From assembly GCA_964600165.1 (NCBI GenBank), contig CAZRIP010000003.1, positions 4,683 to 68,682 on the forward strand: a DNA stretch of 64,000 bases, read 5' to 3'. The translations under genes were made by a program, and so were the position numbers. Under the pieces are notes generated by a model. It ran no database searches, was not told where the DNA came from, and worked only from the letters and a program-made list of their open reading frames with translations. The DNA is from an uncultured Elusimicrobia bacterium. GTDB lineage: Bacteria; Elusimicrobiota; Elusimicrobia; UBA1565; UBA9628. Below, piece by piece: positions 29,850 to 43,810 of the stretch; positions within the stretch are counted from its first letter, which is position 1, and each line of letters starts with the position of its first letter.

Positions 29850-30431
29850 GTGGAGGCGCGGTTGAGCCCGAAGCAGTCTCGCGGACGCGCCGAGGCCTTC
29901 CCGGAGCTGATCCGGCTTTACGGCGAGAAGGCGTATAACTTCGCGTTCCGCCTGGCCGGCAACGAGCCCGACGCGCGGGACTTGACGTCAGAGGCCTTCG
30001 CGCGCGCGTTCGAGCATTTCAGCTCCTACGATCCGTCCAAGCCGTTCGATTCGTGGCTGCTGCGCATCTTGCGCAACATCTACCTCGACGGCGTGAGGCT
30101 TTACTCGCACGGTCACAGCGTCTCGCTCGACGCGGCGGCGCCGGTCGAGGGCTCGTCCTGGGAAGAGATACTTCCCGGCGATGATCCCGAGCTCGGCTCC
30201 GGCATCGAGCGGAAGCAAACCGACGAGCTGGTGCAGAAGGCGCTGGACGCTTTGCCGGTGCATTACAAGACGGCCGTGACTTTGTGCGACGTAGAGGGCC
30301 TTTCATACGAGCAGATCGGAGAGATCATGGCCTGCCCGGTCGGGACGGTCAGGTCCAGGATCCACGAGGGCCGCAAGATCATGAAAGAGACGTTTGAGAA
30401 GCTCGAAAAGAGCGGGGGACGAGCGCAATGA
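29850..30431 (+). CDS. RNA polymerase sigma-70 factor, ECF subfamily
   Basis: Region 2 (FPELIRLYGEKAYNFAFRL...DLTSEAFARAF) and region 4 (LPVHYKTAVTLCDVEGLSYEQIGEIMACPVGTVRSRIHEGRK). Confidence 0.85.
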   Translation: MEARLSPKQSRGRAEAFPELIRLYGEKAYNFAFRLAGNEPDARDLTSEAFARAFEHFSSYDPSKPFDSWLLRILRNIYLDGVRLYSHGHSVSLDAAAPVEGSSWEEILPGDDPELGSGIERKQTDELVQKALDALPVHYKTAVTLCDVEGLSYEQIGEIMACPVGTVRSRIHEGRKIMKETFEKLEKSGGRAQ

Positions 30432-30919
30432 ACGAGCACGATGAAGGCCAGCTGCTGTCGGCCTATCTCGACGGAGAGCTGTCCGCCGACGAGAACGCTC
30501 GCGTGAAGGTCCACCTCGACGGCTGCCCCGGCTGCCGCGTCGATCTCGAGGGCCTGCGCCACGCCAAGCACTTGCTCGCCGCCGCCCCGCGGCGCGCCAT
30601 GCCTCCCGAGCTCATCGCCGATTTGAACGAGCGCCTCGAGGCCCCGACCCTCGCCGACCGGTTGTTCGCCTGGCGCCGCTCGCCGCGCGTCATGGTCCCG
30701 GCGGGCGCGTTCGCGGCGCTCGCGCTGGCCGCCGCCTCTTGGTTCGTCTGGCAGAGCCGCGAGCCCGACCAATTCGTCCCGCTCGAGCCTCTTCTCGCCG
30801 CCCACTCCCGCTACGAAGCCGAGTCGCTCGTGCCGCAAGGAAGCCTCGTCGCGTCGAGCTACGCCTCGAATTTGACGGCCTTCTATGCGGATGGGCAGGA
30901 TCAAGACTCCGCTGAATAA
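30428..30919 (+). CDS. Transmembrane zinc-binding anti-sigma factor (HxxxCxxC 'ZAS' motif)
   Basis: LSAYLDGELSADENARVKVHLDGCPGCR is the HxxxCxxC zinc motif. One TM helix (AGAFAALALAAASWFVW) and a short C-terminal exo-domain. 4-nt overlap with the sigma gene. Confidence 0.7.
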   Translation: MNEHDEGQLLSAYLDGELSADENARVKVHLDGCPGCRVDLEGLRHAKHLLAAAPRRAMPPELIADLNERLEAPTLADRLFAWRRSPRVMVPAGAFAALALAAASWFVWQSREPDQFVPLEPLLAAHSRYEAESLVPQGSLVASSYASNLTAFYADGQDQDSAE

Positions 30920-31934
30920 GGCGCTCGCCGGCGCTCTGCTCGTCCTCGCGGCGACGCGCGGAGCGCGGGCCGAGGCGCCTCCGGACCCGCAGAAGCTCCT
31001 GTCCGCCGTCCTCGAGCCCTCCGCCGTGGCCTTCGAAGGGCGCATGATGGTCACGCATTGGTACGGAAAGCACCACAGCGAGGCGGAGGAAGTCCACGTC
31101 TACCATTTGCCGCCGAACCTGAGCCGGCGGGAGTTCACCGCGCCCGACGGCACGGTCACGAAGGTCGTCGTCAGCGACGGCGACCGCGAGGAAGTCCACC
31201 TCATCCGCCAGAAGAAGATCATCGAGGGCGACGCCGTCAAGTCGTTCGAGAAGCTCATGCCCGAGGACCGCGAGCTCGAGCTTTTGCTCAAGAACTACAA
31301 GCTCTCGGTGACGGGACCGGACCAGGTCGCCGGCCGCAAGGCCTGGGTCCTTCACATGGCGTCGGATCATCCCGGCAAGCCCTCGCAGGACTTCTGGGTC
31401 GATCAAGAGACGCACGCGATCCTCGAGAACCGCCGCTTTCTCCCGCACCGGCCCTTCGCCGCTTTGTCGCGCTACTCGCATTTCGAGACCAAGAAGACTC
31501 TCCCGGAAGATCTGTTCAAACTCGAGCTCTCGTCGAGCGCGATCCAGGGCAAGGGGCTCGAGCCCGATTTCATGAGCCTCGACGAGCTTTCCCAAACGAG
31601 CGGAAAGAAGGCGGCGTTCCCCGTGGCGCTCAACGACGGCTTCGTCTTCGAGAGCGCCGATTACTTGACGGTCGGCAAGCACACCGTCTTGCACGCGCGC
31701 TACACCGACGGGCTCGCCGTGATCTCGCTCTTTCAGACCGACCGTCCGGCGCGCAGCACGAGCAAGACGGACTCCCAGGTCGCCGCGCCGGCGTCCTCGG
31801 CCAAAGGCGCCGGGCAGCTGCGCCTGTCGGCCTCGGCGAAGGTCTTGAATTTCCGGCGCGGCCCGCGCTTTTACACGCTGATGGGCGACGTCTCGCGCGA
31901 GATGCTCCAAGAGATCGCCGCGCAAGTCAAGTAG
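30885..31934 (+). CDS. RseB/MucB-like anti-sigma-factor-binding periplasmic protein (LolA-like fold)
   Basis: Signal peptide. The N-terminal domain pattern FEGRMMVTHWYGK...EVHVYH...RREF.APDG fits RseB. Third gene of the sigma/anti-sigma cassette. Confidence 0.5.
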   Translation: MRMGRIKTPLNKALAGALLVLAATRGARAEAPPDPQKLLSAVLEPSAVAFEGRMMVTHWYGKHHSEAEEVHVYHLPPNLSRREFTAPDGTVTKVVVSDGDREEVHLIRQKKIIEGDAVKSFEKLMPEDRELELLLKNYKLSVTGPDQVAGRKAWVLHMASDHPGKPSQDFWVDQETHAILENRRFLPHRPFAALSRYSHFETKKTLPEDLFKLELSSSAIQGKGLEPDFMSLDELSQTSGKKAAFPVALNDGFVFESADYLTVGKHTVLHARYTDGLAVISLFQTDRPARSTSKTDSQVAAPASSAKGAGQLRLSASAKVLNFRRGPRFYTLMGDVSREMLQEIAAQVK

Positions 31935-32649: not shown

Positions 32650-34014
32650 GTGCTCGACGCGCTGATCGTCCTCGCCTACCTCGCCTGCGTCGTGTTCCTC
32701 GGCTTATGGGCCGCGCGCCGCGGGCACGATGGCCTTTCCGACTTCGTGCTCGCGGGGCGGCGCCTGACGCTGCCGCTGTTTGTCGCCACGCTCGTGCCGA
32801 GCTTCTACGGCGGCGTGCTCGGCGTCGGCGAGTTCACGTGGGAAAACGGCCTTTCCAATTGGCTCGTGATGGGCCTGCCTTATTACGTCTTCGCCGCGGT
32901 CTACGCCGTCGCGCTCGCGGGCCGCGTGCGCGCCGCCGAGGGGCTGACGATCCCCGATCACTTCGAGCGCGCCTATGGCCCGCGATTGGCCGCCTGGTCC
33001 GGACTGCTCGTCTTCCTGCTGGCCAATCCCGCCGACGAGCTGCTGATGATCGGGCTGCTGCTTTCGCGCGCGATCGGCGTGCCCGTGGCCGCGGCCATGG
33101 CGCTCGCCGGCGCGGCTTCTTTCGCGCTGCTGCGGCGCGGCGGGCTGCGCTCGGACGTCTGGGCCAACGCGCTCCAGTTCGTCGTGATGTTCGCGGGCTT
33201 CGCCGTCATCTTGCCGGGGGCTCTCTCGCGCGCGGGCGGATTGGGAGGCTTGAGCGCCGCGCTGCCGGCCGGCCACCTGTCTCTGAGGGGCGGCATGAGC
33301 GGATGGCGGATATTGAGCTGGTGGCTGATCGCCGTCTGGACGCTCGTCGACCCGTCTTTCCACCAGCGCTGCGCGTCCGCCGAGAGCGGCGCGACCGCGC
33401 GCGCCGGCATCTTGTGGTCGATCGCGTTCTGGTTTCTCTTCGACGCGATGACGACGACGGCGGGGCTGTGCTCGCGCGCGCTGATGCCGGGGCTGCGCGC
33501 CCCGCTGCTCGCCTACCCGTCGCTCGCCGACGCCCTGCTTCCGGCGGGGCTGCGAGGCCTCTTCTACGCGGCCCTGGCTTCCTCGATCCTCGCGGCGCTC
33601 CAGACCAAGACGCTCCTCGCCGGCGTGAGCCTGGGCAAGGACGCCGCCGCGCGGATACTTTCTCTGGGCGAGCGCGCGCAGCAGTCGCTCGCGCGGTGGG
33701 CGCTGCTCGCCGCGCTGGCGCTCGGCTGGGCGCTGGCGCTCTGGATCCCGTCGGTCGTCGATCTCTGGTACGCGGTCGGCACGACGATCATCCCCGCGCT
33801 GCTGCTGCCGCTGCTGGGGACGTATTTCCCCCGCATGCGGGTCTCCGCGCGGTTCGCCGCGCTCTCGTCGGCCGCGGGTCTCGCCCTTTCGGGCGGCTTC
33901 TGGCTCGCGGGACGTTTCCTCGGCGCCCCGCCGTGGGGCATCGAGCCGATGTTTCCCGGCTTGGCCGCGTCGGCGCTCGTCTGGGCGGTCGGCTTAAGTC
34001 GGGCTTTGGCGTAG
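32650..34014 (+). CDS. Sodium:solute symporter (SSS) family transporter
   Basis: 454 aa with ~12-13 TM helices. SSS-like N-terminal region. GTG start. Confidence 0.65.
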   Translation: MLDALIVLAYLACVVFLGLWAARRGHDGLSDFVLAGRRLTLPLFVATLVPSFYGGVLGVGEFTWENGLSNWLVMGLPYYVFAAVYAVALAGRVRAAEGLTIPDHFERAYGPRLAAWSGLLVFLLANPADELLMIGLLLSRAIGVPVAAAMALAGAASFALLRRGGLRSDVWANALQFVVMFAGFAVILPGALSRAGGLGGLSAALPAGHLSLRGGMSGWRILSWWLIAVWTLVDPSFHQRCASAESGATARAGILWSIAFWFLFDAMTTTAGLCSRALMPGLRAPLLAYPSLADALLPAGLRGLFYAALASSILAALQTKTLLAGVSLGKDAAARILSLGERAQQSLARWALLAALALGWALALWIPSVVDLWYAVGTTIIPALLLPLLGTYFPRMRVSARFAALSSAAGLALSGGFWLAGRFLGAPPWGIEPMFPGLAASALVWAVGLSRALA

Positions 34015-34124
34015 GCCGCTCGTCCCTTCCTTTATAGGACTATTGCCGCTGACAATGGGTCCCAATCGGACCTGAGTCGCGCGGACGTCATGTTATAAGC
34101 TTCTTCAACGGGAGAATTATCAAT

Positions 34125-37100
34125 ATGACCAAGCCACGCATCTCGACCAAGATCATCTCCGCCTCGCTGTCGACGGCGCTCGCGTTCCTTTCCTTCGCGC
34201 TGCCCGCGGCCCCGGCGCTCGGCGCCGAGCTGACCGCGGCGCCGACCATGGGCCTTCCGGCCGGCGGTTGGACGCCCGTCGTGGCCGGCCTCGCGACGCC
34301 CGCGAACCTCTCCCGGTTCTCGGGCGTCACGATGCAAGGCGTCGACGTCGCCGATCTTCTGACGCAAATCGGGCGCGTGAACTTAGCCGCTCCAGGCCAA
34401 TTCATTCCCGCGCAGGCTCTCGAAAAGCTCGCCGGTCTGCCGAAGAACGCCTCCGAGCGCGAGGTCGTGACGGCGCTGGCGCTCGCCGCCGCGCAGACGC
34501 GCGCCGACGCGACCGACGCGCTCGCGCAGCTGCGCTCGGGGGTCAAGGCCTCCGAGCTTCCGGCGCTCGCGGCTCGGCTCAACCGCGCCGACCTCGCCTT
34601 TACCCTGCTGACCTCCGAACAGCGCGCCGCGATCCCCGCCGCGTCGGCCGCCGTCTCGCGCGAAGTCGCGCAGACGCGCGGCGCGAACGCCGACCGCCTC
34701 GTGAAGATCGGCGTGACCGGCTGGAATAAGACGACGGACGCGACGGAAGTCTCCGGCTCCGAATCAACGACGCTCTCCCGGCTGTCTCCAGCGTCCGCCC
34801 AAGGCGAGAAGCGGACCGCCAACGCCATCGAGTATTCCCGCACCGTCGTCACGACGACGAAGACGACGACCAAGCTCGGCTGGAAGCAGGCGCTGCGCTA
34901 CGGCGCGCTGATCGCCGCCTTGCCCGTCGCCGTCTTCGCGCTGCCGCAGATGAGCCCGGTCGCGCTGATCGTCGCCGTCGGCGTGATGGGCTCGGTGGTC
35001 GCGCACGAGTACGCGCACCTCTTCATGCTCCGCCGGCTGGGCGACGACACGTCGACCAAGCAGAACGTCTCGGCCAACCCCTTCAAGCTCGTCGACCCCG
35101 TCGGCACCGTCGCCGTGCCGGTCATCACCTCGGCGCTCTCCGCGGCGTTAGGCGTCCCGGCGCTCTTCGGCTGGGCCAAGCCCGTGCCGGTCGACTTCAA
35201 CAAACTCGCCGACCCGCAGAAGGACGCGATGAAGGTCGCTCTCGCCGGGCCGGTCATGAACGCCGCTCTCGGCGCCGTCGCCTTCGGCGCCCTCGCGCTC
35301 TTCCACCCGGCCGGGGCCGCCGCGGCGTCGCTCTTGGCGCTCGGCAAGATCAACCTCGTGCTCGCCGTCTTCAACATGCTGCCGTTCTCGCCGCAGATGG
35401 ACGGCTTCAAGGTCGCCATCGGGATGCTGTCGCGCGAGCAGTACGCGAAATGGACCGAGAACAAGAGGCTGCCTGAAGCCTACCGCTCCACGTTCAACAA
35501 GCTCTTCGAGGGGCCGTCCGCGATCCTCAACTGGGTCGGCATGGACAGCCAGGGGCACGTCAACTTCGCCACGCGGGCGATCACCTTCGCCGCGTTCGGC
35601 GTCGTGGCCATCGCCGCGCACGCCTTCATCGGCGCGCCGTTCATCATCATGGCGCTCGTCTGCAGCTACGACTACTACTGCATCCGCGAGAAGATCCAAA
35701 ACGAGGAGGCGGTCAAGAAGCTGATCCCGATCATGCAGGGGATCGGCTCGGCGATCGCGCGCGTCGCGGAGGAAGACGAGTCCATCCAGTCGCAGATCAA
35801 CACGGAAGAGATCGAGCACGCGATGAAGAACGTGTTCGAGGACGTCCTCGATAAAGTCGTCGACTCGACGGGCTTCTCGAGCCTTTCGGACGATGAGAAG
35901 TGGTCGCGCTTCGAGGAGGCTTATCTCGACGCCGCCGTCGACTCGCTCTCGCGCAAGGGCATGTCGAAAGACTCCAAGGAAAAGATCCGCGAGACGCTGC
36001 GCCACCAATACGTGCGGGAGTACATCGACAAGCTGCGCGGCTGGGTGGAGGAGAACGACGTCTGGCGCAAGTGGCACAGCCCGAACCGCAAGAAGAAGAG
36101 CGGCATCAGCGAAGCGGTCAAGAAGAAGGCCGGCTCCCTCGGCTCCTCGGGCATGGCCGTCGTCGCGCTCGCGCTCGTGGGCGGCTCGATCCTCGCGCCG
36201 CACGGCGTCGGCGCGGCGCTGAGCCTGGCCGGCGCGGGGCTGATGATGGGCACGATCTCGGCCAAGAAGCCCAAGCCTTTCAAAGAAGCCCTCGAGGATT
36301 TGCGGCTCTCCGACAAGGAGCTCGCCGCGATGATCATGCTCCTGAAAGACATGACGCTCGACAACAAGCCGCCGCTGTCGGGCCGCATCGACGAGCTCTC
36401 GCGCGCGTATTCCGGCGTGACCGGACCGCGCGGCATCAAGGAGTCGGTCGCGCTCGTCGGCAAGCCCGGCACGGGCAAGACCGCGATCGTCGAGAAGCTC
36501 GCGCAGTCGGCCGTGATGGGACAGAGCCACGAGGGGACGCTTTCCCTTAAGAAGATGGAAGGCCGCTACGTCATCGAGGTCAACTCGACGCGCCTCATGC
36601 GCCAGGAAGACCCGGCCGGCACGCTCGAAGCCGTCATCGACATCCTCAACAAGCTCAACGAAGAAGACCCTCGCGCGGGCAACAAGGTGATCCTGTTCCT
36701 CGACGAGGCGCACGTCCTCTTCGACGGCGAGAAGGGCAAGCACGTCGCCAACACGTTGAAAAAGCCGGTCCGCGACGGCGCCGTCTCCATCATCCTCGCC
36801 ACGACGCTCGACGAGTACAAGAAGTACGTCGAGCCCGACGAAGCCCTCAAACGCCGCTTCCCGGCGATCTTCGTCGACGAGTCGACGACCGAGGAGACGC
36901 TGCGCGCGCTGGAAAACGCGAGCGCGTGGTACGAGAAGCGCTTCGGCGTGAAGGTCGACCCTTCCGCGCTCAAGGCCGCCGCCGAGTTGGCGCCCAAGTT
37001 CAACCACGAGGAGTATCTGCCCGGCAGCGCGTTCACCTACTTCGAGAACGCGGTCAAGTGGGCCGACTTCGACCTGCGCCGCGACTTGGTCGCGCTGTCG

Positions 37101-40100
37101 ATCGCGGATAAGATCAGCGATCTCCAGTACGCGATGAAGAAGCTCAAGGAGAACCTCCAGAAGACCGACCGGGTCACGGAGAATCTCAAGAAAGACGAGC
37201 CGACGACCGTCGGGTACTACAATCTCGCGATCAAGCTCAGCCAAGAGCTCGTCGAACTCTACAAGGAGCAGGCCGCGATCCCGGCCGAGGGCAAGCCCGT
37301 CGTCGACGGCGAGCTCGTCGGCATGGCGATCTCGCGCGAGACCGGCATCAAGTCCGGCCAGCTCACGCTCGGCAGCGAGCCGATAGAGAAATACCTCAAG
37401 ATGGAAGAAGAGGTCGGCAAGAAGGTCATCGGCCAGCCGGACGCGATCGCCGCGATCGCGCGCTCGGTGCGCCAGAACAAGGCCGGCCTCTCCGATCCCA
37501 AGCGGCCGCTCGGCGTCTATTATCTGACCGGCCCGACGGGCTCGGGCAAGACGCACCTCGCCAAGGAGCTCGCCCGCTTCCTCTTCGATGATCCGGAAGC
37601 CGTCGTGCGCGTCGACATGTCGGAGTACATGGAGAGCCACTCGGTCTCGAAGTTCATCGGCTCGCCCCCCGGCTACGTGGGCTTCGAGTCCGGCGGCCAG
37701 CTGACGGAGGCCGTCCGCAAGAAGCCGTACTCGGTCGTGCTCTTCGACGAGATCGAGAAGGCGCACCCGCAGGTCTGGCTGATGATGCTCCAGATCCTGG
37801 GCGAAGGGCGCCTGACCGACGGCCAGGGCAAGACGACGAGCTTCAAGAACACGATCATCCTCATGACGTCGAACCTCGGCATGCACGCCGTCGACGTCGA
37901 GCCTTACGTGAAGGCTTTCGAGGAGCTGCGCGCCAAGGAGCGGGCCGCCGCGGGCGACCGTATCGCCCTGCGCGAGCTCGAGCAGGAGAAATTAGAGCTC
38001 GCCGAGCGGCTCTCCGCGGAGACCAAGGCCGCGACGTCGGTGATCACGGCCCAGGCTTTCAAGGAGACTTACCCGCCGGAGTTCGAGGGCCGCTTATCGG
38101 CGCCTCCGATCGTCTTCAACCGCATCACGCCGGCGATGGCGCTGCAGATCGCGGAGTTGAATCTCAAGGAGCTGCGCGGCGTGCTCGGCTACGCCGGCCA
38201 CGAGTTCGCCTGGACGCCCGGCGTCGTCAAGAAGGTCGTCGACGAGGGCTTCTCGGTGCGGCTGGGCGCGCGCCCGCTGCAAAACGCCATCGACCGCCTG
38301 ATCACGCAGAACATCGCCACGGAGATCCTCCACACGGCGATGCGGAACGGCGGCAAAGTCGAGCCCTCGCGCATCGAGGCCGTGCTCGGCGAGGACGGCG
38401 AGGTCAAGCTCAACATCAAGTCGCTGCCTCCGAAGCAGGTCAAGAAGGGCGAGGCCCAGGGCGCGGCCAAGGAGCTCTTCACGACGGTGCTCGAGCAGAC
38501 GCTGACGGCGGCGGCCGACACCGCCGTGCCGGCGCCGACGCTCCAGATCATCGACGAGTGGGTCAAGGCCGCGCTCGCCGCCAACCCCGAGCAAACCTCG
38601 GTCGCTGACGCGGCTCAGCCCGAGACGGCGCAGCCTGCCGCTCCCGCGGACGAGGAGCAAGTCGCGCGCCCCGCGCCCGTCCAGGCTCCCGTCAGGCCCG
38701 GACTCCTGACGCTTGACGCGGCTTCGCCGCTCTCGGCGCAGGCGCGCAGCGTGGCCGCCGCCAACAACGACCCCGAGCTCAAGGACCCGGGCGTCCGACA
38801 GGCCGCCGCCGCGATCAAGGAAGCCATGGCCGGCTATCCCGAAGCCGCGCGCGAGGCCGTCCTGCGCACGATCGAAGATCAGAACGACCCCTACGTCGGC
38901 TGGCTCAAGATCTTCGTAGAGCAAGCCAAGCGCAACGGCGGAGGCAATCCGACCATCAAGTACGAGGTCAACGACGAAACGGCCCGCGTCGCCGTAGCTC
39001 GCACCGGCGCGCTGTCGAGCCGCGAGAAGGACTTGCTGACCCGGCACTTCACCGGCCTCGCGCCGTTGGACGCCTCGCAGGCGCGCACCCGCGTCGAGAC
39101 CTGGAACGTCCAGGACAGCGGCTCGGGCATGCGGCTGATGCTCGACCTCCATCGCATCCTCGCGAAGATCCCCGGCGCCAAGCTCGGCGTCGAGGTGGCG
39201 GGCGGCGGCGTCGAGTACTGGATCGAGATCCCGAAGCCCCAGACGCCCGCGGCGCCCGCGGCCGAACCGACTCCTCCGACCTCGGCGGAAGCGGCGCCTC
39301 CGGCGACGCAGCCGGCGGCCCCGCGCCCGCTCGTGGCGGCGGCCGAGGGCGCTCCCCAGTTCAACGAGGCGGGGAACGCCACGCCGCTCGCGGTGGCTAA
39401 GCGCGGGCTCTCGGACGATTCCATCAAGACCCACGCGACCCGCATCCGGAACGCGATGGCAGAGAAATCGTACGGCGGCGAGGCCAAAGGCGCCGCGGTG
39501 CTCTTTCTCGCTCGGGCCGCGGACTTCATGAAGTCCAACGCCGCCACAGGCGAAGGCGTCACCCTGATGTGGAGCGTCGACGAAAACGGCGCGCAGGTCC
39601 TGATCCACCGCGCGGGCCATCCTCTCAACGACGCCGAGATCGCGCGTCTCAACATCCTCATCGACAGCAGCACGGAGCTGAAGGCAAAGCTCGAAGCTGC
39701 GGGGGGTCGAGTGTTTTATGGCTCGGAAGAATTCTCGCAAGGGGGCAACGGCGCCTCCGTGTGGATCCAGCTCCCTCATCAAGCGCCGGCCGGCCAGGCC
39801 GACGGCAGCGCGGCGACGCCGCTCTCTTCCACGCAGGAAGGGACCGACGTCGCCGCGCTGCTGGCCAAGATCCACACGCCCTCGGAAGCCGGCAGCGATC
39901 CGCGGATCATGTGGGTCGCCTTCAGCGGAAGCGAAGAGGACGCGCTCGGGCAGCTCGAGGCGCGCGGCTTCGAGGTCCCGCTCGTGCGCCACGAGGACGG
40001 CTTCAAGCGCGCCCGGCTCATCGCTCCGACGGCCCAGGCCGCGGCGCGCGCCGCGCTGATGCTCGCCGTGAACCCGGATGTCCGGGAGATCGACCTGCAT

Positions 40101-42410
40101 CCCCAGGCGCGCTCGCTCATACGCGCCACGCCGGCGGCCGACATGTCTCACGCGCCCGAGGGCTTCACCTCCGTCGAGATCGACCGGGTTTCCCCGAACG
40201 CCGAGGACGCGGAGCTCGGCAACGCGAAGAATTCGATCCGGCGCGCCGCGCCTGAAGGCGACGCCCGCCGGCAGGCCGCGCTCGCCCGATTCGTGGACGA
40301 GACGGCGCGTAAAGCCAAGGAGTCCTCGCGCCCGGGCGACAAGATCTTCGTCGAATGGAAGGCGACGCCCGACGAGCTGCAGGTCTCGGTGCGCGTGCAA
40401 GGCGCCGCGGTCAACGCTCTCGAGTGGACCGGCTGGGCCGCGGGCTCCGTCTTCGCCGCCGAGCTCGCCGAGATGAACGGGATGGTGCACGTGGAGGGCG
40501 GCGCGGGCGGCGGACGCTTCACGCTTTCGCTGCCGGCTCCGCGCGCGGTCTCCGGGACCCGCCCGGGCTCCGGCGCGCCCGCGATGCGCGCGACGACCCA
40601 ATTCAAGGAGCAGCTCGTCACGCTGATGCGCGAGCTGATCCGCCAAAGAGAGCAGCGCGGCCTGGCGCTGCGCTACACGGCGGCGGAGATCGTCGCCGAA
40701 GCGTCGTCGCGCTCCGACATGGACTGGACGGCCGATTGGCTGCGCTTCGCCAGCGACCCCGAGGTCACCTCGGTCAATGAGGACAACGGCCCTCAAGTCG
40801 CCGCCGCCGGCATGGTCATCTCCAAGCACGGCAGCCGCTCGCAGGACGAGCGGCGCCTGATCGCCGCGATGAAGAAATTCCAATCGAGCGACAGCTGGGA
40901 CCATGCCCGTCCCGCGCGCACGCGCCTGATCCGTTCGCTCGCCAAGCTGCTGACGCCCGGAAACGACCGCCAGCTCGAGGAGCTCATCGCGCGCTACGAC
41001 CGCCAGAAGCAGCCGAACCTCCCGGCCTCCGAGAAGCTCCACGCCGACGTCGTGCTGGCGATCCAGACCGCGCTGCTGCGCAACGCCGGGCGCGACCAGT
41101 TCGACAAGCTCGTCACGCGCGACTGGAACAAGCGCCTTTTCGCCGAGACCTACGACTACGTCAAGCGCGTCAACCCCGATTATCTGCGCCGCGTCTACGA
41201 CGACTGGAAGGCCGGCAACACGCTCGACGGAGCGCGCCGCATGATGGCTCTCTGGGCCATCGCCGATTACGGCGACCGCGGCGACATGGCGACGCTCATG
41301 GCCTCCGTGCGCGAGGACCGCTGGATGGGCTCGTCGGTCAACCTCGAGGAGAAGAACTTCTTCGGCGAGGCGCTCGGCCGCATGGCGCAGCGCCTCGGCT
41401 ACGACGACGCCCTCAAGCACGACGCGCGGCTTTGGATGCGCGAGGGCATGGGCACCGGGGGCAGCTACCTGCGCATGGTGACGGCGGTCCAGATCGCCGG
41501 CGCGGTCGGCGACGCCGAGGACATGCCGTACTTGGAGCGGATCTTCCGCGTGAACCCGTCCGGCGGCGTCTCCTTCGAGCACGAGATGACGCAGATGGAA
41601 TCGACGGTCGCCTGGGGCAAGATCGCGCAGCGCGAGGGCTTGGTTCCCGAGTATTGGGGCACGCGCCAGGACCCGAGCGACCCCAATTCATTGCCGCTGC
41701 TGCAGGCCTGGCTCTCGGACACGAACTCCGGCGTCAACATGGCCGCCGCCCAAGCTCTCCTCGAGTTCGTCAAGCACGGCTCGCCCGCCCGCCCCGCCGC
41801 GGCCGCGGCGCGCCCGGCGCCACCCGTGGCCGACCACCCGTTCTTGCGCACCGGCGCGCCGTCGATGCCCGGCGGCGACTTGCGCACGTTCACCGAGACG
41901 CCGTCCGACGCGACCCTGCCCTACGCACGGTTGAGCGACGGCAATAAGGAGTTCGCCCGTCTTTGGCTCGACGCATTCGGCAGCATCGCGAGCGCCATTT
42001 TCGGCTTGGACTTCTCACGCCAGCTGCGCATGTCGCAGAACGCCTCGGCCGGCGCCGCCACGTTCGTGCTGTCTCAAGCCGGTGGGAGCGCGATCGAGGC
42101 CGCCCGCTTCGCCGAGTTCCGCCAGCTCGTGCTGCTTTTGCTCAACATCGCGCGCGACCCGCAGGACGTCCGCGCGCGCAAATGGACGGAACTCTCCGCG
42201 CGCTTCGTCGAGGTCCACACGGCTTACACGGTGCTCAACGGGCTGGTGAACCAAGCCGGCGTCTCGATGGGCGTCAATCATGACGCCTCGCTCCCGGGCG
42301 AGCCCGCGCGCGCCGAGATCTGGCTCAAGTTCGACGTCAGCGGCCGCCCGACGCCGCCCCGGCCGTCTAACCCGAGCTTGCGCGACGACGGCGACGACCT
42401 CCCGTTTTGA
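34125..42410 (+). CDS. Giant 2,761-aa multidomain membrane protein: signal peptide, M50/site-2-protease-like domain, ClpB-like double AAA+ module, three GHKL-like repeats, C-terminal alpha-helical repeats
   Basis: One uninterrupted ORF. GGGAGA SD lies 9 nt upstream of the ATG. M50 motifs: HEYAH (35004-35018) and NMLPFSPQMDG (35373-35405). NBD1: Walker A GKPGTGKT (36458-36481), Walker B ILFLDEAH, then ATTLDEYKKYVEPDEALKRRF. NBD2: GPTGSGKT (37530-37553), VVLFDEIEKAHPQVW, MTSNLG, sensor-2 GARPLQNAIDR. Three repeats ending GGGVEYWIEIP, GGNGASVWIQLP and GGAGGGRFTLSLP. Confidence 0.85.
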   Translation: MTKPRISTKIISASLSTALAFLSFALPAAPALGAELTAAPTMGLPAGGWTPVVAGLATPANLSRFSGVTMQGVDVADLLTQIGRVNLAAPGQFIPAQALEKLAGLPKNASEREVVTALALAAAQTRADATDALAQLRSGVKASELPALAARLNRADLAFTLLTSEQRAAIPAASAAVSREVAQTRGANADRLVKIGVTGWNKTTDATEVSGSESTTLSRLSPASAQGEKRTANAIEYSRTVVTTTKTTTKLGWKQALRYGALIAALPVAVFALPQMSPVALIVAVGVMGSVVAHEYAHLFMLRRLGDDTSTKQNVSANPFKLVDPVGTVAVPVITSALSAALGVPALFGWAKPVPVDFNKLADPQKDAMKVALAGPVMNAALGAVAFGALALFHPAGAAAASLLALGKINLVLAVFNMLPFSPQMDGFKVAIGMLSREQYAKWTENKRLPEAYRSTFNKLFEGPSAILNWVGMDSQGHVNFATRAITFAAFGVVAIAAHAFIGAPFIIMALVCSYDYYCIREKIQNEEAVKKLIPIMQGIGSAIARVAEEDESIQSQINTEEIEHAMKNVFEDVLDKVVDSTGFSSLSDDEKWSRFEEAYLDAAVDSLSRKGMSKDSKEKIRETLRHQYVREYIDKLRGWVEENDVWRKWHSPNRKKKSGISEAVKKKAGSLGSSGMAVVALALVGGSILAPHGVGAALSLAGAGLMMGTISAKKPKPFKEALEDLRLSDKELAAMIMLLKDMTLDNKPPLSGRIDELSRAYSGVTGPRGIKESVALVGKPGTGKTAIVEKLAQSAVMGQSHEGTLSLKKMEGRYVIEVNSTRLMRQEDPAGTLEAVIDILNKLNEEDPRAGNKVILFLDEAHVLFDGEKGKHVANTLKKPVRDGAVSIILATTLDEYKKYVEPDEALKRRFPAIFVDESTTEETLRALENASAWYEKRFGVKVDPSALKAAAELAPKFNHEEYLPGSAFTYFENAVKWADFDLRRDLVALSIADKISDLQYAMKKLKENLQKTDRVTENLKKDEPTTVGYYNLAIKLSQELVELYKEQAAIPAEGKPVVDGELVGMAISRETGIKSGQLTLGSEPIEKYLKMEEEVGKKVIGQPDAIAAIARSVRQNKAGLSDPKRPLGVYYLTGPTGSGKTHLAKELARFLFDDPEAVVRVDMSEYMESHSVSKFIGSPPGYVGFESGGQLTEAVRKKPYSVVLFDEIEKAHPQVWLMMLQILGEGRLTDGQGKTTSFKNTIILMTSNLGMHAVDVEPYVKAFEELRAKERAAAGDRIALRELEQEKLELAERLSAETKAATSVITAQAFKETYPPEFEGRLSAPPIVFNRITPAMALQIAELNLKELRGVLGYAGHEFAWTPGVVKKVVDEGFSVRLGARPLQNAIDRLITQNIATEILHTAMRNGGKVEPSRIEAVLGEDGEVKLNIKSLPPKQVKKGEAQGAAKELFTTVLEQTLTAAADTAVPAPTLQIIDEWVKAALAANPEQTSVADAAQPETAQPAAPADEEQVARPAPVQAPVRPGLLTLDAASPLSAQARSVAAANNDPELKDPGVRQAAAAIKEAMAGYPEAAREAVLRTIEDQNDPYVGWLKIFVEQAKRNGGGNPTIKYEVNDETARVAVARTGALSSREKDLLTRHFTGLAPLDASQARTRVETWNVQDSGSGMRLMLDLHRILAKIPGAKLGVEVAGGGVEYWIEIPKPQTPAAPAAEPTPPTSAEAAPPATQPAAPRPLVAAAEGAPQFNEAGNATPLAVAKRGLSDDSIKTHATRIRNAMAEKSYGGEAKGAAVLFLARAADFMKSNAATGEGVTLMWSVDENGAQVLIHRAGHPLNDAEIARLNILIDSSTELKAKLEAAGGRVFYGSEEFSQGGNGASVWIQLPHQAPAGQADGSAATPLSSTQEGTDVAALLAKIHTPSEAGSDPRIMWVAFSGSEEDALGQLEARGFEVPLVRHEDGFKRARLIAPTAQAAARAALMLAVNPDVREIDLHPQARSLIRATPAADMSHAPEGFTSVEIDRVSPNAEDAELGNAKNSIRRAAPEGDARRQAALARFVDETARKAKESSRPGDKIFVEWKATPDELQVSVRVQGAAVNALEWTGWAAGSVFAAELAEMNGMVHVEGGAGGGRFTLSLPAPRAVSGTRPGSGAPAMRATTQFKEQLVTLMRELIRQREQRGLALRYTAAEIVAEASSRSDMDWTADWLRFASDPEVTSVNEDNGPQVAAAGMVISKHGSRSQDERRLIAAMKKFQSSDSWDHARPARTRLIRSLAKLLTPGNDRQLEELIARYDRQKQPNLPASEKLHADVVLAIQTALLRNAGRDQFDKLVTRDWNKRLFAETYDYVKRVNPDYLRRVYDDWKAGNTLDGARRMMALWAIADYGDRGDMATLMASVREDRWMGSSVNLEEKNFFGEALGRMAQRLGYDDALKHDARLWMREGMGTGGSYLRMVTAVQIAGAVGDAEDMPYLERIFRVNPSGGVSFEHEMTQMESTVAWGKIAQREGLVPEYWGTRQDPSDPNSLPLLQAWLSDTNSGVNMAAAQALLEFVKHGSPARPAAAAARPAPPVADHPFLRTGAPSMPGGDLRTFTETPSDATLPYARLSDGNKEFARLWLDAFGSIASAIFGLDFSRQLRMSQNASAGAATFVLSQAGGSAIEAARFAEFRQLVLLLLNIARDPQDVRARKWTELSARFVEVHTAYTVLNGLVNQAGVSMGVNHDASLPGEPARAEIWLKFDVSGRPTPPRPSNPSLRDDGDDLPF

Positions 42411-43183
42411 CGCCGCTCGCCGAATTCGGACCCTATAAGCTCGCTGGCCTTGCCGCCCTGATCTTCTTTGGCGGCGTCGTCGACGCCCTGGCGGGCGGCG
42501 GCGGCCTAGTGACGATCCCCGCCTACCTCGCCTTCGGCCTCGATCCTCGGTTCCTGCTCGGGACCAACAAACTCAGTTCCTGCATCGGCACGGCGGCCGC
42601 CTCGCTCAACTATCAAAGGAACCAGCGCCTCGACTTGGCGGCGATGGCGCCCGGCTTCGCGGCGGCGCTGCTCGGGGCGGTCCTGGGAGCGACGGCGGCG
42701 AAGTCCCTCGGCGCGAGCGGCATCCGGATCCTCGTGCTCGTCGCGCTGCCGCTCGTCGGCTGGTTCATCTACTCGAAGCACGGGTTCGGGCGGGAGGACC
42801 GCAGCGCCTCGCTCGGCGGCGCGCTCAAGAGGCGCGAAACGGCCCTCGCGCTGCCGATCGGGGTTTACGACGGCTTTTTCGGTCCCGGGACAGGGCTTTT
42901 CTTCGCGCTAGCCCAGGTGCGCTGGTGCCGCCGCGACTTGCTCGGCGCGACCGTGCGCGCGAAGTTCTTGAATCTCACGACCAATCTCGCCGCCCTCGCC
43001 ACTTTTCTGCTCGCCGGTCGCGTCGACATCCCGCTCGGACTGCTGATGGCCGCGGCGAGCGTCGCGGGAAACTGGACAGGTTCGCATCTGGGCCTCAAGA
43101 ACGGCCCAAAGGCGATCCGCCCCGCCGTCCTTCTCGTCTGTTTCGGCCTTTTCGCGAAACTTTTGCTCGACTATCTGAAGTAA
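42407..43183 (+). CDS. Sulfite exporter TauE/SafE-family membrane protein (DUF81)
   Basis: GGVVDALAGGGGLVTIPAYL is the TauE signature. The TTG start overlaps the giant gene's stop (TTGA). Confidence 0.75.
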   Translation: MTPLAEFGPYKLAGLAALIFFGGVVDALAGGGGLVTIPAYLAFGLDPRFLLGTNKLSSCIGTAAASLNYQRNQRLDLAAMAPGFAAALLGAVLGATAAKSLGASGIRILVLVALPLVGWFIYSKHGFGREDRSASLGGALKRRETALALPIGVYDGFFGPGTGLFFALAQVRWCRRDLLGATVRAKFLNLTTNLAALATFLLAGRVDIPLGLLMAAASVAGNWTGSHLGLKNGPKAIRPAVLLVCFGLFAKLLLDYLK

Positions 43184-43267: not shown

Positions 43268-43810
43268 ATAAACAAGTTCGGTAACAGCTACAACAACAGC
43301 AATCGCGACACAACTCGAGTCAACAACAGGATCAGCGCCAGCCAAGTCAGGCTCATCGACGCGGACGGCACTCAAGTCGGCGTAAAGCCTCTCTCGGAAG
43401 CTCTGGCGATGGCGCGCCAGCGCGGCCTCGACCTCATCGAGATCGCTCCGACGGCCAACCCGCCGGTCTGCAAGATCCTCGATTACTCGAAATACAAGTA
43501 CGAGCAGGAGCGCAAAGCCCGCGATCAGCGCAAGAAGCAGAAGGCGGGGCTCTTGAAGGAAGTCCGGTTCAAGCCGCACATCGGACAGCACGATTTAGAC
43601 GTCAAAATTAAGCACATCAGCGAATTCATCGCCGAGCACGACAAGGTGCGCATCACCGTCGTGTTTCGAGGCCGCGAGATGCAGCATCGCGACCTCGGCA
43701 TGAAGCTGCTGGACCAGATAAAGGAGCGGTTGATAGAGACGGCAGTGGTGGAGCAGGCTCCGGCGCCGGATCGGAACAGGCTCATCATGACGTTGATCCC
43801 GAAACACTAA
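43268..43810 (+). CDS. infC: Translation initiation factor IF-3, with a non-canonical ATA (AUA) start
   Basis: IF3 homology (RISASQVRLIDADGTQVGVKPLSEALAMARQRGLDLIEIAPTANPPVCKILDYSKYKYEQ) extends 47 codons upstream of the track ATG at 43409. The frame opens after a TAA at 43256. The only start-like codon is ATA at 43268, with AAGGAG 5 nt upstream. infC classically uses AUU or AUA. Confidence 0.75.
   Translation: MNKFGNSYNNSNRDTTRVNNRISASQVRLIDADGTQVGVKPLSEALAMARQRGLDLIEIAPTANPPVCKILDYSKYKYEQERKARDQRKKQKAGLLKEVRFKPHIGQHDLDVKIKHISEFIAEHDKVRITVVFRGREMQHRDLGMKLLDQIKERLIETAVVEQAPAPDRNRLIMTLIPKH

What the first reader, a model, noticed from the sequence alone, without database searches (positions are those of the whole stretch)
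34870..35690. Site-2-protease-like (M50) domain with intact catalytic motifs
The sequence shows HEYAH at 35004-35018 inside a hydrophobic segment. It shows NMLPFSPQMDG at 35373-35405, about 120 residues downstream. HExxH in a TM helix followed by LNxxLAxFNLLPxxPLDGG is the defining pair of the M50 (S2P/RseP/SpoIVFB) family. Both are in TM context here, with GPVMNAALGAV between them. The ~220-aa Ala-rich region and signal peptide before it would place an extracytoplasmic domain ahead of the protease core.
Basis: partly seen in the sequence, partly recalled or inferred. Interest (0 to 1): 0.6.

Follow-up and report, generated by a model that had tools for sequence, protein, structure and literature searches.

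The report
Membrane zinc protease fused to unfoldase
The flagged stretch is a genuine site-2-protease (M50) membrane domain, but it is only the first tenth of a 2,761-residue protein that also carries a complete ClpB-like ATP-driven unfoldase; this single-chain combination is seen only in Elusimicrobiota and was not found in the literature I could search.

Summary
HEYAH (35004-35018) and NMLPFSPQMDG (35373-35405) lie in hydrophobic helices. PF02163 passes its cut-off (29.3-30.1 vs 27.2 bits). A family profile hits every solved S2P (MjS2P, E = 1.7e-17).

The domain is residues 253-522 of one 8.3-kb ORF (34125-42410). Its order is: signal peptide, exported Ala-rich domain, M50 core, conserved linker, TM hairpin, two-ring Hsp100/ClpB-like AAA+ module, three degenerate GHKL-fold modules, HEAT-like tail.

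About 15 orthologue clusters exist among 1.84 billion representatives. All members that cover the N-terminal part keep HExxH and N..P...DG. All named members, and the only six full matches among 185,579 species genomes, are Elusimicrobiota. Public records call them "AAA family ATPase", "hypothetical protein" or "ClpC".

My best reading is inferred, not shown: a self-contained machine couples intramembrane cleavage to ATP-driven extraction and unfolding. RseP and ClpXP do this as separate proteins.

Open points: one extra residue in the Asp-ligand motif, the membrane topology, the substrate, and possible self-release.

Verdict: new variant of known kinds. Interest 0.62.

The parts
34110..34114 (+). 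Shine-Dalgarno-like GGGAG, 10 nt upstream of the ATG
   Evidence: Read from the sequence. The first in-frame start after the stop at 34053 is the ATG at 34125. The consensus scan found no sigma-70 promoter.
34125..42410 (+). Single ORF of 2,761 aa: the M50-Hsp100-GHKL-HEAT fusion protein
   Evidence: GC3 is 0.92 and GC2 is 0.47 along the whole length. Collinear orthologues of 1,770-2,961 aa occur in independent assemblies.
34125..34223 (+). Signal peptide (residues 1-33; K/R n-region, 17-residue h-region, ...PALG|AE)
   Evidence: Hydropathy. Equivalent N-termini ending ...ALA|AD or AFA|Q occur in P0016-P0021, P0024, P0026 and P0034. Cleavage is inferred.
34224..34880 (+). Ala-rich N-terminal domain (residues 34-252), presumed exported
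   Evidence: No Pfam hit. Only the first ~90 residues are conserved, and only in near relatives.
34881..35690 (+). Peptidase M50 (site-2 protease) transmembrane core, residues 253-522
   Evidence: PF02163 at 29.3/30.1 bits vs GA 27.2. Profile vs PDB: 3B4R at E = 1.7e-17. AF2 model pLDDT 76, with MjS2P and SpoIVFB as the top fold hits.
35004..35018 (+). HEYAH: two zinc-ligand histidines and the catalytic glutamate (H294, E295, H298)
   Evidence: invariant; aligned to MjS2P HELGH.
35247..35279 (+). GPVMNAALGAV: conserved AGP..N motif of the helix equivalent to MjS2P TM3
   Evidence: G127 is invariant; P128 and N131 are nearly invariant. The motif aligns to MjS2P 'IAGPLVS'.
35373..35405 (+). NMLPFSPQMDG: N..P...DG motif with the third zinc ligand D426; one residue longer than the consensus, and followed by F where relatives have G
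   Evidence: P0021 shares the variant (FNLLAPLPHADGF).
35661..35681 (+). CSYDYYC motif at the cytoplasmic end of the last M50 helix (family consensus C[ST]YDY[YW]CI[RH]EK)
   Evidence: C240, Y244, C246, E249 and K250 are invariant in alignment A2. Function unknown.
35691..36128 (+). Conserved charged helical linker domain (residues 523-668), found only in this family
   Evidence: Alignment A2. In the GTDB scan only Elusimicrobiota loci match it.
36129..36263 (+). Gly/Ala-rich hydrophobic hairpin (residues 669-713); absent in P0018
   Evidence: Hydropathy; comparison of orthologue sequences.
36357..37169 (+). Hsp100 D1 AAA+ module with lid (Walker A GKPGTGKT 779-786; Walker B ILFLDEA from 856); the pore-loop tyrosine is absent
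   Evidence: PF00004 and PF17871. Alignment to ClpB 1QVR: 'AGAKYRGEFE' corresponds to 'RQEDPAGTLE'. The loss is family-wide.
37170..37394 (+). Short coiled-coil insertion at the position of the ClpB/ClpC middle domain
   Evidence: Gap between the D1 and D2 matches; family alignment.
37395..38399 (+). Hsp100 D2 AAA+ module with D2-small domain (Walker A GPTGSGKT 1136-1143; pore loop PPGYVG 1181-1186; Walker B VVLFDEI from 1204). It has a coiled-coil insertion of roughly 65 residues (counted by eye) after sensor-1 and no [ILV]G[FL] ClpP loop
   Evidence: PF07724 at 180.9 bits and PF10431 at 43.2 bits.
38733..39254 (+). GHKL/Bergerat-fold module 1 ('C1', residues 1537-1710), conserved in nearly all family members; invariant His1641 in HFTG
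   Evidence: AF2 pLDDT 90.4, pTM 0.86. All top 50 Foldseek hits are histidine-kinase CA domains, ChpT, SpoIIAB/RsbW or PDK. No N-box Asn or DxGxG is conserved.
39360..39815 (+). GHKL-like module 2 (residues 1746-1897)
   Evidence: hhalign A3 vs A5: probability 97.6%, E = 2.9e-12. Weak C1-HMM hit.
39900..40112 (+). ~70-residue repeat module (residues 1926-1996), probably ferredoxin-like; 1-5 copies at variable positions in relatives
   Evidence: Iterative HMM search. Only non-significant hints to prodomain, CutA1 and RRM folds.
40122..40523 (+). GHKL-like module 3 (residues 2000-2133)
   Evidence: It is a member of alignment A5, which matches C1 by hhalign.
40545..42407 (+). C-terminal ~620 residues, probably alpha-helical repeats (HEAT_2 hit at residues 2519-2554 = 41679-41786)
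   Evidence: PF13646 at 26.9 bits, just below GA 27.7. Conserved at about 32% identity in L001 and L002.

Best explanation
The flagged region is the catalytic transmembrane core of a genuine, probably active M50 (site-2-type) zinc metalloprotease. It is covalently fused to a two-ring Hsp100/ClpB-like AAA+ unfoldase within one 2,761-aa inner-membrane protein. Proposed mechanism, which is inferred: the signal peptide exports the N-terminal domain; the M50 helices hold the zinc site (H294, H298, D426) in the membrane; everything after residue ~522 is cytoplasmic. The Hsp100 part oligomerises under the membrane, tethered by its own M50 domains. Transmembrane client proteins, for example single-pass anti-sigma factors such as the RseA-like one encoded 3 kb upstream, are cut within the bilayer. 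Their cytoplasmic parts are then gripped by the D2 pore loops and extracted and unfolded with ATP. There is no peptidase chamber or ClpP-docking loop, so the expected outcome is release or remodelling, not degradation. This would put on one chain the two steps that RseP/RasP and ClpXP perform as separate proteins. The three degenerate GHKL-fold modules and the HEAT-like tail are proposed client- or adaptor-binding surfaces. What is shown: the domain identities, motif conservation, architecture and phyletic distribution. What is inferred: catalysis, topology, oligomeric state, coupling and the substrate.
For: M50 identity: PF02163 above GA; catalytic residues invariant; all solved S2Ps hit, ligands aligned; MjS2P and SpoIVFB are the top fold hits. 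The M50 is under selection within the fusion: every family member that covers the N-terminal part keeps HExxH and N..P...DG at 37-56% identity, and M50+linker is about as conserved as Hsp100 (56% vs 62% to L001; 38% vs 41% to L003). Hsp100 competence: both Walker A/B pairs, the Arg-finger region, the D2 GYVG loop and sensor-1 are conserved family-wide. The fusion is real and recurrent: about 15 clusters score above the ClpB plateau among 1.84e9 representatives, six GTDB Elusimicrobiota species carry it, and a second, very different M50-Hsp100 architecture exists in P0036. No conserved partner gene exists, so the system is self-contained. Precedent for functional coupling of S2P cleavage with an AAA+ unfoldase: RseP then ClpXP, in PMC7593790. 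A single-pass zf-HC2 anti-sigma factor with an RseB-like partner lies 3 kb upstream in the window and about 7 kb upstream in L001.
Against: No catalysis, substrate, oligomer or topology was tested. The window protein has one extra residue between N..P and DG, and DGF where relatives have DGG, so the ligand geometry could not be verified because model coordinates are not exposed. The D1 pore loop has no aromatic residue. In the P0018/P0023/P0024 clade, 300-550 residues of repeat modules separate the membrane part from D1, so a tight FtsH-like geometry is not conserved. Two relatives, P0027 and P0034, keep the anchor, Hsp100 and C-terminal modules but have no M50, so the Hsp100 part can evidently work without a cis protease. 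The sigma/anti-sigma cluster is syntenic only in the closest relative. PF02163 is only about 2-3 bits above its threshold, and fold TM-scores are 0.39-0.47.
Confidence: 0.5

Rival explanations
1. Self-release (cis- or trans-autoprocessing). The M50 domain cuts the protein's own Gly/Ala-rich hydrophobic hairpin or tether in response to a periplasmic signal sensed by the N-terminal domain. This frees a soluble Hsp100-GHKL-HEAT machine, as S2P frees SREBP/ATF6, or as PARL activates the human ClpB homologue Skd3. The Skd3/PARL comparison comes from my own knowledge.
For: The hairpin at residues 669-713 is rich in helix-destabilising Gly, Ser and Pro, a typical S2P substrate feature by general knowledge. 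A conserved signal peptide and exported domain could act as a sensor. The invariant CxYDYxC...EK lies at the membrane-cytosol boundary. No partner or substrate gene is conserved. Human CLPB/Skd3 appears among the D2 homologues.
Against: P0018 lacks the hairpin yet keeps an intact M50. P0027 and P0034 keep the membrane anchor without any M50, which suggests that permanent anchoring is functional. No cleavage-site evidence exists.
Confidence: 0.15
2. Loose association. The M50 domain is an active but functionally independent housekeeping protease, or mainly a membrane anchor. The Hsp100 part is simply a membrane-tethered disaggregase or remodeller, and the fusion reflects co-localisation, not mechanistic coupling.
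For: Relatives without M50 exist (P0027, P0034). The spacing between the membrane part and D1 is highly variable, at 30 to about 580 residues. The closest M50 relatives are small stand-alone proteins of unknown role.
Against: Catalytic residues and the family-specific linker are strictly conserved in all fusion members. M50 and Hsp100 are also fused in an independent architecture, P0036. A pure anchor would not need HExxH and N..P..DG.
Confidence: 0.25
3. Ordinary stand-alone RseP/SpoIVFB-type site-2 protease with an extracytoplasmic domain.
For: M50 motifs and the PF02163 hit. An RseA/RseB-like operon lies nearby.
Against: The ORF continues for a further 2,239 residues with strong coding statistics and collinear orthologues. 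There is no PDZ or CBS domain. The nearest M50 relatives are the short LGDDTA/FGWAKPVPV clade.
Confidence: 0.03
4. Artefact: a chimeric assembly or read-through ORF in GC-rich DNA joins unrelated genes.
For: High-GC genomes produce long spurious ORFs. The window has antisense ORFs of 912 and 1,162 aa over this gene.
Against: GC3 is 0.92 in this frame. The same domain order occurs in at least 13 proteins from independent ENA, JGI, NCBI and Logan assemblies.
Confidence: 0.01

Closest known systems
Short stand-alone M50 'Zn-dependent protease / site-2 protease family protein' (LGDDTA...NP..DP.GT...FGWAKPVPV...AGP..N...FN.LP.PPLDG clade), and structurally MjS2P (PDB 3B4R)
   Same: HExxH, AGP..N and N..P..DG sit in equivalent helices. 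Identity is 29-59% over the core. The profile hits 3B4R at E = 1.7e-17.
   Different: Those proteins are 250-500 aa with nothing attached. Here the core is preceded by a signal peptide and exported domain and followed by 2,239 more residues. The Asp is at N+9, not N+8.
RseP/RasP (M50) followed by ClpXP in sigma-E / sigma-W activation
   Same: Intramembrane cleavage of a single-pass anti-sigma factor is followed by ATP-dependent unfolding of the released fragment (PMC7593790). An RseA/RseB-like operon lies nearby.
   Different: In the known pathway the two activities are separate proteins, the unfoldase is single-ring ClpX docked on ClpP, and RseP has PDZ domains. Here they are one chain, with a two-ring Hsp100, no ClpP loop and no PDZ. 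The link to the anti-sigma factor is circumstantial.
FtsH (AAA+ with M41) and Lon: AAA+ and protease on one polypeptide
   Same: A membrane-anchored zinc metalloprotease is covalently joined to an AAA+ motor that presumably faces the membrane.
   Different: FtsH has one AAA ring followed by a soluble M41 chamber. Here an intramembrane M50 precedes a two-ring Hsp100 and there is no degradation chamber. No M41 or Lon hit was found.
ClpB / ClpC / ClpV (class I Hsp100)
   Same: D1, lid, coiled coil, D2 and D2-small are present. ClpB 1QVR scores 354 bits, with intact Walker motifs and D2 GYVG.
   Different: There is no Clp_N domain and no D1 pore-loop tyrosine. The middle domain is short, D2 carries an extra coiled coil, and the protein is membrane-anchored. 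The ClpB equivalog score is 428 against a cut-off of 1,232.
GHKL-fold anti-sigma factors and pseudo-kinases (SpoIIAB, RsbW, ChpT)
   Same: The fold of the three post-Hsp100 modules matches.
   Different: There is no Pfam HATPase_c hit, and no conserved N-box Asn or G1 DxGxG. They are probably not ATP-binding. The only invariant residue is a His in HFTG.
Human CLPB/Skd3 activated by the rhomboid PARL (from my own knowledge)
   Same: An Hsp100-type disaggregase has its activity tied to an intramembrane protease.
   Different: The protease class differs (serine rhomboid), the proteins are separate, and the setting is eukaryotic and mitochondrial.

Membership tests
Peptidase M50 (site-2 protease) | HExxH within a transmembrane helix | tested here: met
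   HEYAH is at residues 294-298, in hydrophobic segment 279-297 and predicted helix 278-304. It is invariant in 17 and 10 aligned sequences.
Peptidase M50 (site-2 protease) | N-x-x-P-x-x-x-x-D-G in a second transmembrane helix, providing the third zinc ligand (Asp) | tested here: met
   NMLPFSPQMDG is at residues 417-427, and N, P, D and G are invariant. Deviation: the Asp is at N+9 instead of N+8, and DGF replaces DGG; only P0021 shares this.
Peptidase M50 (site-2 protease) | Significant match to PF02163 above the gathering score | tested here: met
   29.3 bits for the whole protein and 30.1 bits for the domain alone, against GA 27.2; E = 6.8e-7 and 3.9e-7. The margin is small.
Peptidase M50 (site-2 protease) | Sequence-profile homology to experimentally solved S2Ps, with catalytic residues aligned | tested here: met
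   3B4R E = 1.7e-17, 7W6Y 1.2e-11, 9J82 1.3e-8, 7W6X 1.1e-6, 8VJL 1.2e-5.
Peptidase M50 (site-2 protease) | S2P core fold | tested here: inconclusive
Peptidase M50 (site-2 protease) | His-His-Asp converge on one zinc site; zinc-dependent proteolysis | not testable with these tools
   Model coordinates are not exposed and there is no biochemistry.
RseP-type (group I) or SpoIVFB-type (group III) S2P | PDZ tandem (RseP) or C-terminal CBS domain (SpoIVFB) | tested here: not met
   No PDZ or CBS hit appears in the Pfam scans of the whole protein or its segments.
Class I Hsp100/Clp ATPase (ClpA/B/C/V) | Two AAA+ modules with Walker A and B, AAA_lid_9 and ClpB_D2-small | tested here: met
   PF00004, PF17871, PF07724 (180.9 bits) and PF10431; motif table; ClpB 1QVR at 354 bits.
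Class I Hsp100/Clp ATPase (ClpA/B/C/V) | N-terminal Clp_N domain | tested here: not met
   No Clp_N is among the Pfam hits down to E = 0.0036. Only about 30 residues lie between the hydrophobic hairpin and D1.
Class I Hsp100/Clp ATPase (ClpA/B/C/V) | Aromatic pore loops in D1 (KYRG) and D2 (GYVG) | tested here: inconclusive
   D2 PPGYVG is conserved. The D1 tyrosine is replaced (RQEDPAG) in all family members.
ClpB (equivalog) | NCBIfam TIGR03346 score above the equivalog cut-off; long middle domain | tested here: not met
   427.7 bits vs a cut-off of 1,232.1. The coiled coil is about 75 residues.
ClpA/ClpC/ClpX-type ClpP partners | [ILV]-G-[FL] ClpP-docking loop after sensor-1 of the last AAA module | tested here: not met
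   The equivalent insertion is a variable coiled coil without the tripeptide.
FtsH | Peptidase M41 domain C-terminal to a single AAA module | tested here: not met
   No PF01434 hit was found, and the protein has two AAA modules. It is a functional analogue only.
GHKL ATPase / histidine-kinase CA domain | Bergerat fold | tested here: met
   The model has pLDDT 90.4 and all top 50 PDB hits are GHKL domains.
GHKL ATPase / histidine-kinase CA domain | N-box Asn, G1 DxGxG and G2 nucleotide-binding motifs; Pfam HATPase_c match | tested here: not met
   No such conserved columns exist in A3 and there is no HATPase_c hit.

The most novel reading that the evidence does not exclude
This family would be the first natural ATP-dependent intramembrane protease. 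An Hsp100 ring, covalently tethered to S2P cores, pulls transmembrane substrates into or out of the M50 active site. That would make site-2-type cleavage energy-dependent and independent of a prior site-1 cut. The GHKL-fold modules, which share the SpoIIAB/RsbW anti-sigma fold, would hold sigma-like clients at the membrane until release. The result would be a complete signal-transduction and quality-control device in one polypeptide.
Probability: 0.25. Interest if true: 0.8.

Novelty: new variant of a known kind. Interest (0 to 1): 0.62.

Why it matters
All characterised intramembrane metalloproteases (S2P/RseP/SpoIVFB) are ATP-independent enzymes whose products are handed to separate AAA+ machines. 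The only AAA+/protease single-chain enzymes listed in the review read here are FtsH and Lon, both with soluble protease domains (PMC7593790). A conserved natural fusion of an S2P core to a two-ring Hsp100 gives a physically linked system for studying how membrane-embedded cleavage and cytoplasmic extraction and unfolding are coordinated. It also suggests that Elusimicrobiota solved this coupling differently from model bacteria. On the practical side, these proteins are annotated only as "AAA family ATPase", "hypothetical protein" or "ClpC", so the protease domain is invisible in current annotation.

Tried and rejected
- **Neighbouring operon as a conserved partner.** I tested whether the ECF sigma / zf-HC2 anti-sigma / RseB-like operon, the SSF transporter or the translationally coupled TauE gene travel with the fusion. 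They are syntenic only in the nearest relatives (L001, L002) and absent from L003 and L005-L008. I rejected them as family-wide partners and kept the anti-sigma factor only as a candidate substrate.
- **Defence system.** PADLOC gives only generic P-loop matches. Rejected.
- **Assembly or ORF artefact.** Rejected on the basis.
- **C1 domain by sequence.** My last homologue search found only one fragment. The PDB profile search found nothing. The fold search solved the question.
- **~70-aa repeat module.** PDB and Pfam searches gave no significant hit.
- **Window protein in public collections.** The exact sequence is not on record, so the source sample is unknown.
- **Literature.** Four searches for an M50/S2P fusion with ClpB or AAA+ found nothing relevant. 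The library lacks most subscription journals.
- **Promoter and terminator scan upstream.** Nothing was found.
- **Seven-crossing topology.** I rejected this model by reasoning. It would place the HExxH and Asp ligands at opposite membrane faces.
Full report
**1. Observation.**
- HEYAH is at 35004-35018, residues 294-298.
- GPVMNAALGAV is at 35247-35279.
- NMLPFSPQMDG is at 35373-35405, residues 417-427.
- Each motif lies in a hydrophobic segment and in a predicted helix.
- PF02163 matches above its gathering score, but narrowly: 29.3 bits for the whole protein and 30.1 bits for the isolated region, against 27.2.

**2. The gene is much larger than the finding.** The region is residues 253-522 of one 2,761-aa ORF, 34125-42410 on the + strand.
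- GGGAG lies 10 nt upstream of the ATG. Coding-frame statistics are GC3 0.92 and GC2 0.47 throughout.
- The long antisense ORFs over the gene are GC-driven shadow ORFs.
- Domain order, with residue numbers:
  - signal peptide, 1-33
  - Ala-rich domain with no Pfam match, 34-252
  - M50 core, 253-522
  - conserved charged helical linker, 523-668
  - Gly/Ala-rich hydrophobic hairpin, 669-713
  - Hsp100 D1 with lid, about 745-1015
  - short coiled coil, 1016-1090
  - Hsp100 D2 with D2-small, 1091-1425
  - Pro/Ala-rich spacer
  - three GHKL-fold modules, 1537-1710, 1746-1897 and 2000-2133, with one ~70-residue repeat (1926-1996) between the second and third
  - a ~620-residue helical tail with a sub-threshold HEAT_2 hit

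**3. M50 membership.**
- A 17-sequence alignment of this domain and its relatives has invariant H, E, H (HExxH), GD.T, P, G..K, G (of AGP..N), FN..P and DG.
- Its profile hits all solved S2Ps: MjS2P 3B4R at E = 1.7e-17, RseP 7W6Y at 1.2e-11, Aquifex 9J82 at 1.3e-8 and SpoIVFB 8VJL at 1.2e-5. HExxH aligns to H54/H58 of MjS2P, and N..P..DG aligns to the D148 motif.
- The AF2 model has pLDDT 76.3 and pTM 0.73. MjS2P (probability 1.00) and SpoIVFB (0.98) are its two best PDB fold matches, with noise below them. TM-scores are only 0.34-0.47, so the fold evidence corroborates the profile but does not settle membership by itself.
- The domain belongs to the short stand-alone clade with the LGDDTA...FGWAKPVPV signature. 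It has no PDZ or CBS domain.
- One deviation: the window protein has an extra residue between N..P and DG (N+9 instead of N+8) and DGF where relatives have DGG. It is the only such sequence in the 20-sequence set. P0021 has the same length and the same DGF (FNLLAPLPHADGF), so this is a lineage variant and not an assembly error. Whether it changes the ligand geometry could not be measured, because coordinates are not exposed.

**4. Family and distribution.**
- Searching with the M50 part alone returns only short M50 proteins.
- Searching with the whole protein returns four giants with M50 and AAA domains together: P0016-P0019, 1,795-2,961 aa, up to 89% coverage.
- An exhaustive HMMER pass over 1.84 billion representatives with residues 254-1425 shows about 15-18 clusters above the ordinary ClpB/ClpC plateau of about 350 bits.
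- Every one that includes the N-terminal part has HExxH, N..P...DG, both Walker A/B pairs and the D2 pore loop.
- Collinearity with P0016 runs from residue 276 to 2738.
- In one genome per species (185,579 species), only six loci match M50 plus the linker. All six are Elusimicrobia/Elusimicrobiota MAGs. The other 74 loci listed match only the M50 core, in other phyla.
- Public names are "AAA family ATPase", "hypothetical protein" and "ClpC".
- Four literature searches found no description of such a fusion.
- Two relatives, P0027 and P0034, have the signal peptide, anchor, Hsp100 and C-terminal modules but no M50.
- A very different 4,189-aa protein, P0036, combines an M50 core with two Hsp100-like modules.

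**5. Hsp100 module.**
- The closest solved relative is ClpB (1QVR, 354 bits), then ClpC and ClpC1. None of the NCBIfam equivalog cut-offs is approached.
- Conserved family-wide: Walker A and B in both rings, the F-R-R-R arginine-finger region, D2 PPGYVG and sensor-1.
- Missing: a Clp_N domain; the D1 pore-loop tyrosine (ClpB AGAKYRGEFE corresponds to RQEDPAGTLE here); and any [ILV]-G-[FL] ClpP-docking tripeptide. The equivalent D2 insertion is a variable coiled coil.
- This therefore looks like an unfoldase or remodeller, not the motor of a chambered protease.

**6. C-terminal modules.**
- The segment conserved in nearly all members (GWLK.F..QAK...HFTG..P...IPGA.LG...YWIE.P) models with pLDDT 90.4.
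- All of its top 50 PDB matches are GHKL/Bergerat domains: CpxA and ThkA catalytic domains, the pseudo-kinase ChpT, the anti-sigma factors SpoIIAB, RsbW and UsfX, and PDK/BCK.
- No N-box Asn or DxGxG is conserved. The only invariant residue is the His of HFTG. I therefore read these as nucleotide-independent binding modules.
- Two further copies follow in the window protein (hhalign probability 97.6%, E = 2.9e-12).
- A ~70-residue module recurs 1-5 times per protein at different positions in different clades. It has only non-significant similarity to ferredoxin-like folds.

**7. Topology (inference only).**
- The signal peptide with an AxA-type site is conserved.
- The ATPase must be cytoplasmic.
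- P0018 lacks the 669-713 hairpin, so the linker and Hsp100 lie on the same side of the membrane.
- H294/H298 and D426 each lie about two-thirds of the way along their helices, so those helices must run parallel.
- The only arrangement I found that satisfies all of these points, and most of the positive-inside rule, is as follows:
  - helix 253-275, which has a central proline in the five orthologues inspected, does not cross and sits on the periplasmic side;
  - 278-304 runs out to in;
  - 325-342 is re-entrant from the cytoplasm;
  - 364-393 runs in to out;
  - 398-433 runs out to in;
  - two further crossings end in the cytoplasm.
- This would place the active site toward the cytoplasmic leaflet, as in canonical S2Ps. 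It needs experimental testing.

**8. Context.**
- Upstream lie an ECF sigma factor (29850-30431), a zf-HC2 single-pass anti-sigma factor (30428-30919; TM at residues ~89-107), a MucB/RseB-like protein (30885-31934) and an SSF transporter (32650-34014).
- Downstream, a TauE gene overlaps the stop codon by 4 nt (42407-43183), followed by infC-rpmI-rplT-pheST.
- Only the closest relative shares the sigma cluster. Only near relatives share TauE. No gene besides the fusion itself is common to all eight loci.
- The giant gene holds the only M50 domain in the window.
- PADLOC gives no defence-system signal.

**9. Mechanism.**
- Shown: a bona fide M50 core with conserved catalytic residues is fused to a motif-complete Hsp100, and this fusion is maintained across a family at 37-56% identity.
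- Inferred (confidence about 0.5): cleavage of transmembrane clients is coupled on one chain to ATP-driven extraction and unfolding. This is the division of labour that RseP/RasP and ClpXP share in trans (PMC7593790). The GHKL and HEAT modules would serve as client or adaptor docks.
- Rivals: regulated self-release of the soluble Hsp100 machine (0.15), and loose co-localisation without mechanistic coupling (0.25). The latter is favoured by the M50-less relatives and by the highly variable membrane-to-D1 spacer.
- A stand-alone RseP-like enzyme and an artefact are both excluded.

**10. Verdict.** The M50 domain by itself is ordinary. The architecture it belongs to is a new variant that combines known kinds, is restricted to Elusimicrobiota, and is unannotated as a protease. 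No report of it turned up in the literature I could search. Interest is 0.62.

Noticed in passing
window 29850-31934 (+): There is a compact operon of ECF sigma factor, zf-HC2 single-pass anti-sigma factor (163 aa, TM at residues ~89-107) and MucB/RseB-like protein. This RseA/RseB-type module is a classic S2P substrate. It lies 2-3 kb upstream of the fusion gene and is syntenic only in the closest relative, L001.
   Followed up: partly
window 42407-43183 (+): A TauE/SafE-family membrane protein gene (133 bits) overlaps the stop codon of the giant gene by 4 nt (ATGA-type coupling). The arrangement is shared with L001 and L002 but not with distant family members.
   Followed up: partly
window 35661-35690 (residues 513-522): The motif C[ST]YDY[YW]CI[RH]EK is near-invariant, with two strictly conserved cysteines, at the membrane-cytosol boundary right after the last M50 helix. 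It has no known counterpart in stand-alone M50 proteins. Its function is unknown; a metal or redox site or a processing site is possible.
   Followed up: partly
window 35382-35405; P0021 residues 432-444: There is a one-residue insertion in the LDG zinc-ligand motif together with a DGG-to-DGF change. It is seen only in the window protein and P0021, and the inserted residue sits at a different position in each. This may be a compensated change.
   Followed up: partly
window 39900-40112; P0018 735-1232, P0023, P0024, P0031, P0035: A ~70-residue module with the pattern V.V.F...AA..AR.LA....V..V.V.P has copy number 1-5. Its position has shifted between clades: before Hsp100 in some, after the GHKL modules in others. 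It is probably ferredoxin-like or prodomain-like, but no hit is significant.
   Followed up: partly
P0036 (4,189 aa, JGI metagenome, low-GC-looking sequence): An unrelated-looking giant has an N-terminal M50 core (HEYAH, FNMIPVSPLDGQ) and two Hsp100 D2-like modules. By eye it also has repeated blocks and NHL-like repeats. This suggests M50-Hsp100 fusion occurs in a second architecture or lineage. Its taxon was not determined.
   Followed up: no
P0027 (2,580 aa) and P0034 (1,950 aa): These family members have the signal peptide, hydrophobic anchor, Hsp100 and GHKL/C-terminal modules but no M50 domain. This could reflect loss or the ancestral state.
   Followed up: no
window 43268-43810 (+), infC: The ORF caller starts IF3 at 43409, inside the IF3_N domain. 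The in-frame upstream sequence encodes the missing N-terminal part and begins at an ATA codon (43268), 7 nt after an AAGGAG. This suggests a non-canonical infC start codon, as in E. coli (AUU).
   Followed up: partly
N-termini of the window protein and P0016-P0021, P0024, P0026, P0034: The signal peptides share an unusual conserved tail, ...LSPG...(C)Y.A(L/F)A|A/Q. This may be a lineage-specific sorting or processing signal.
   Followed up: no
window 35148-37886 (-) and 38094-41582 (-): Antisense ORFs of 912 and 1,162 aa lie opposite the giant gene. They fail the GC3/GC2 coding filter that the sense frame passes. Homologous antisense ORFs also appear opposite the orthologues. These are shadow ORFs of GC-rich coding DNA, not genes.
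   Followed up: yes
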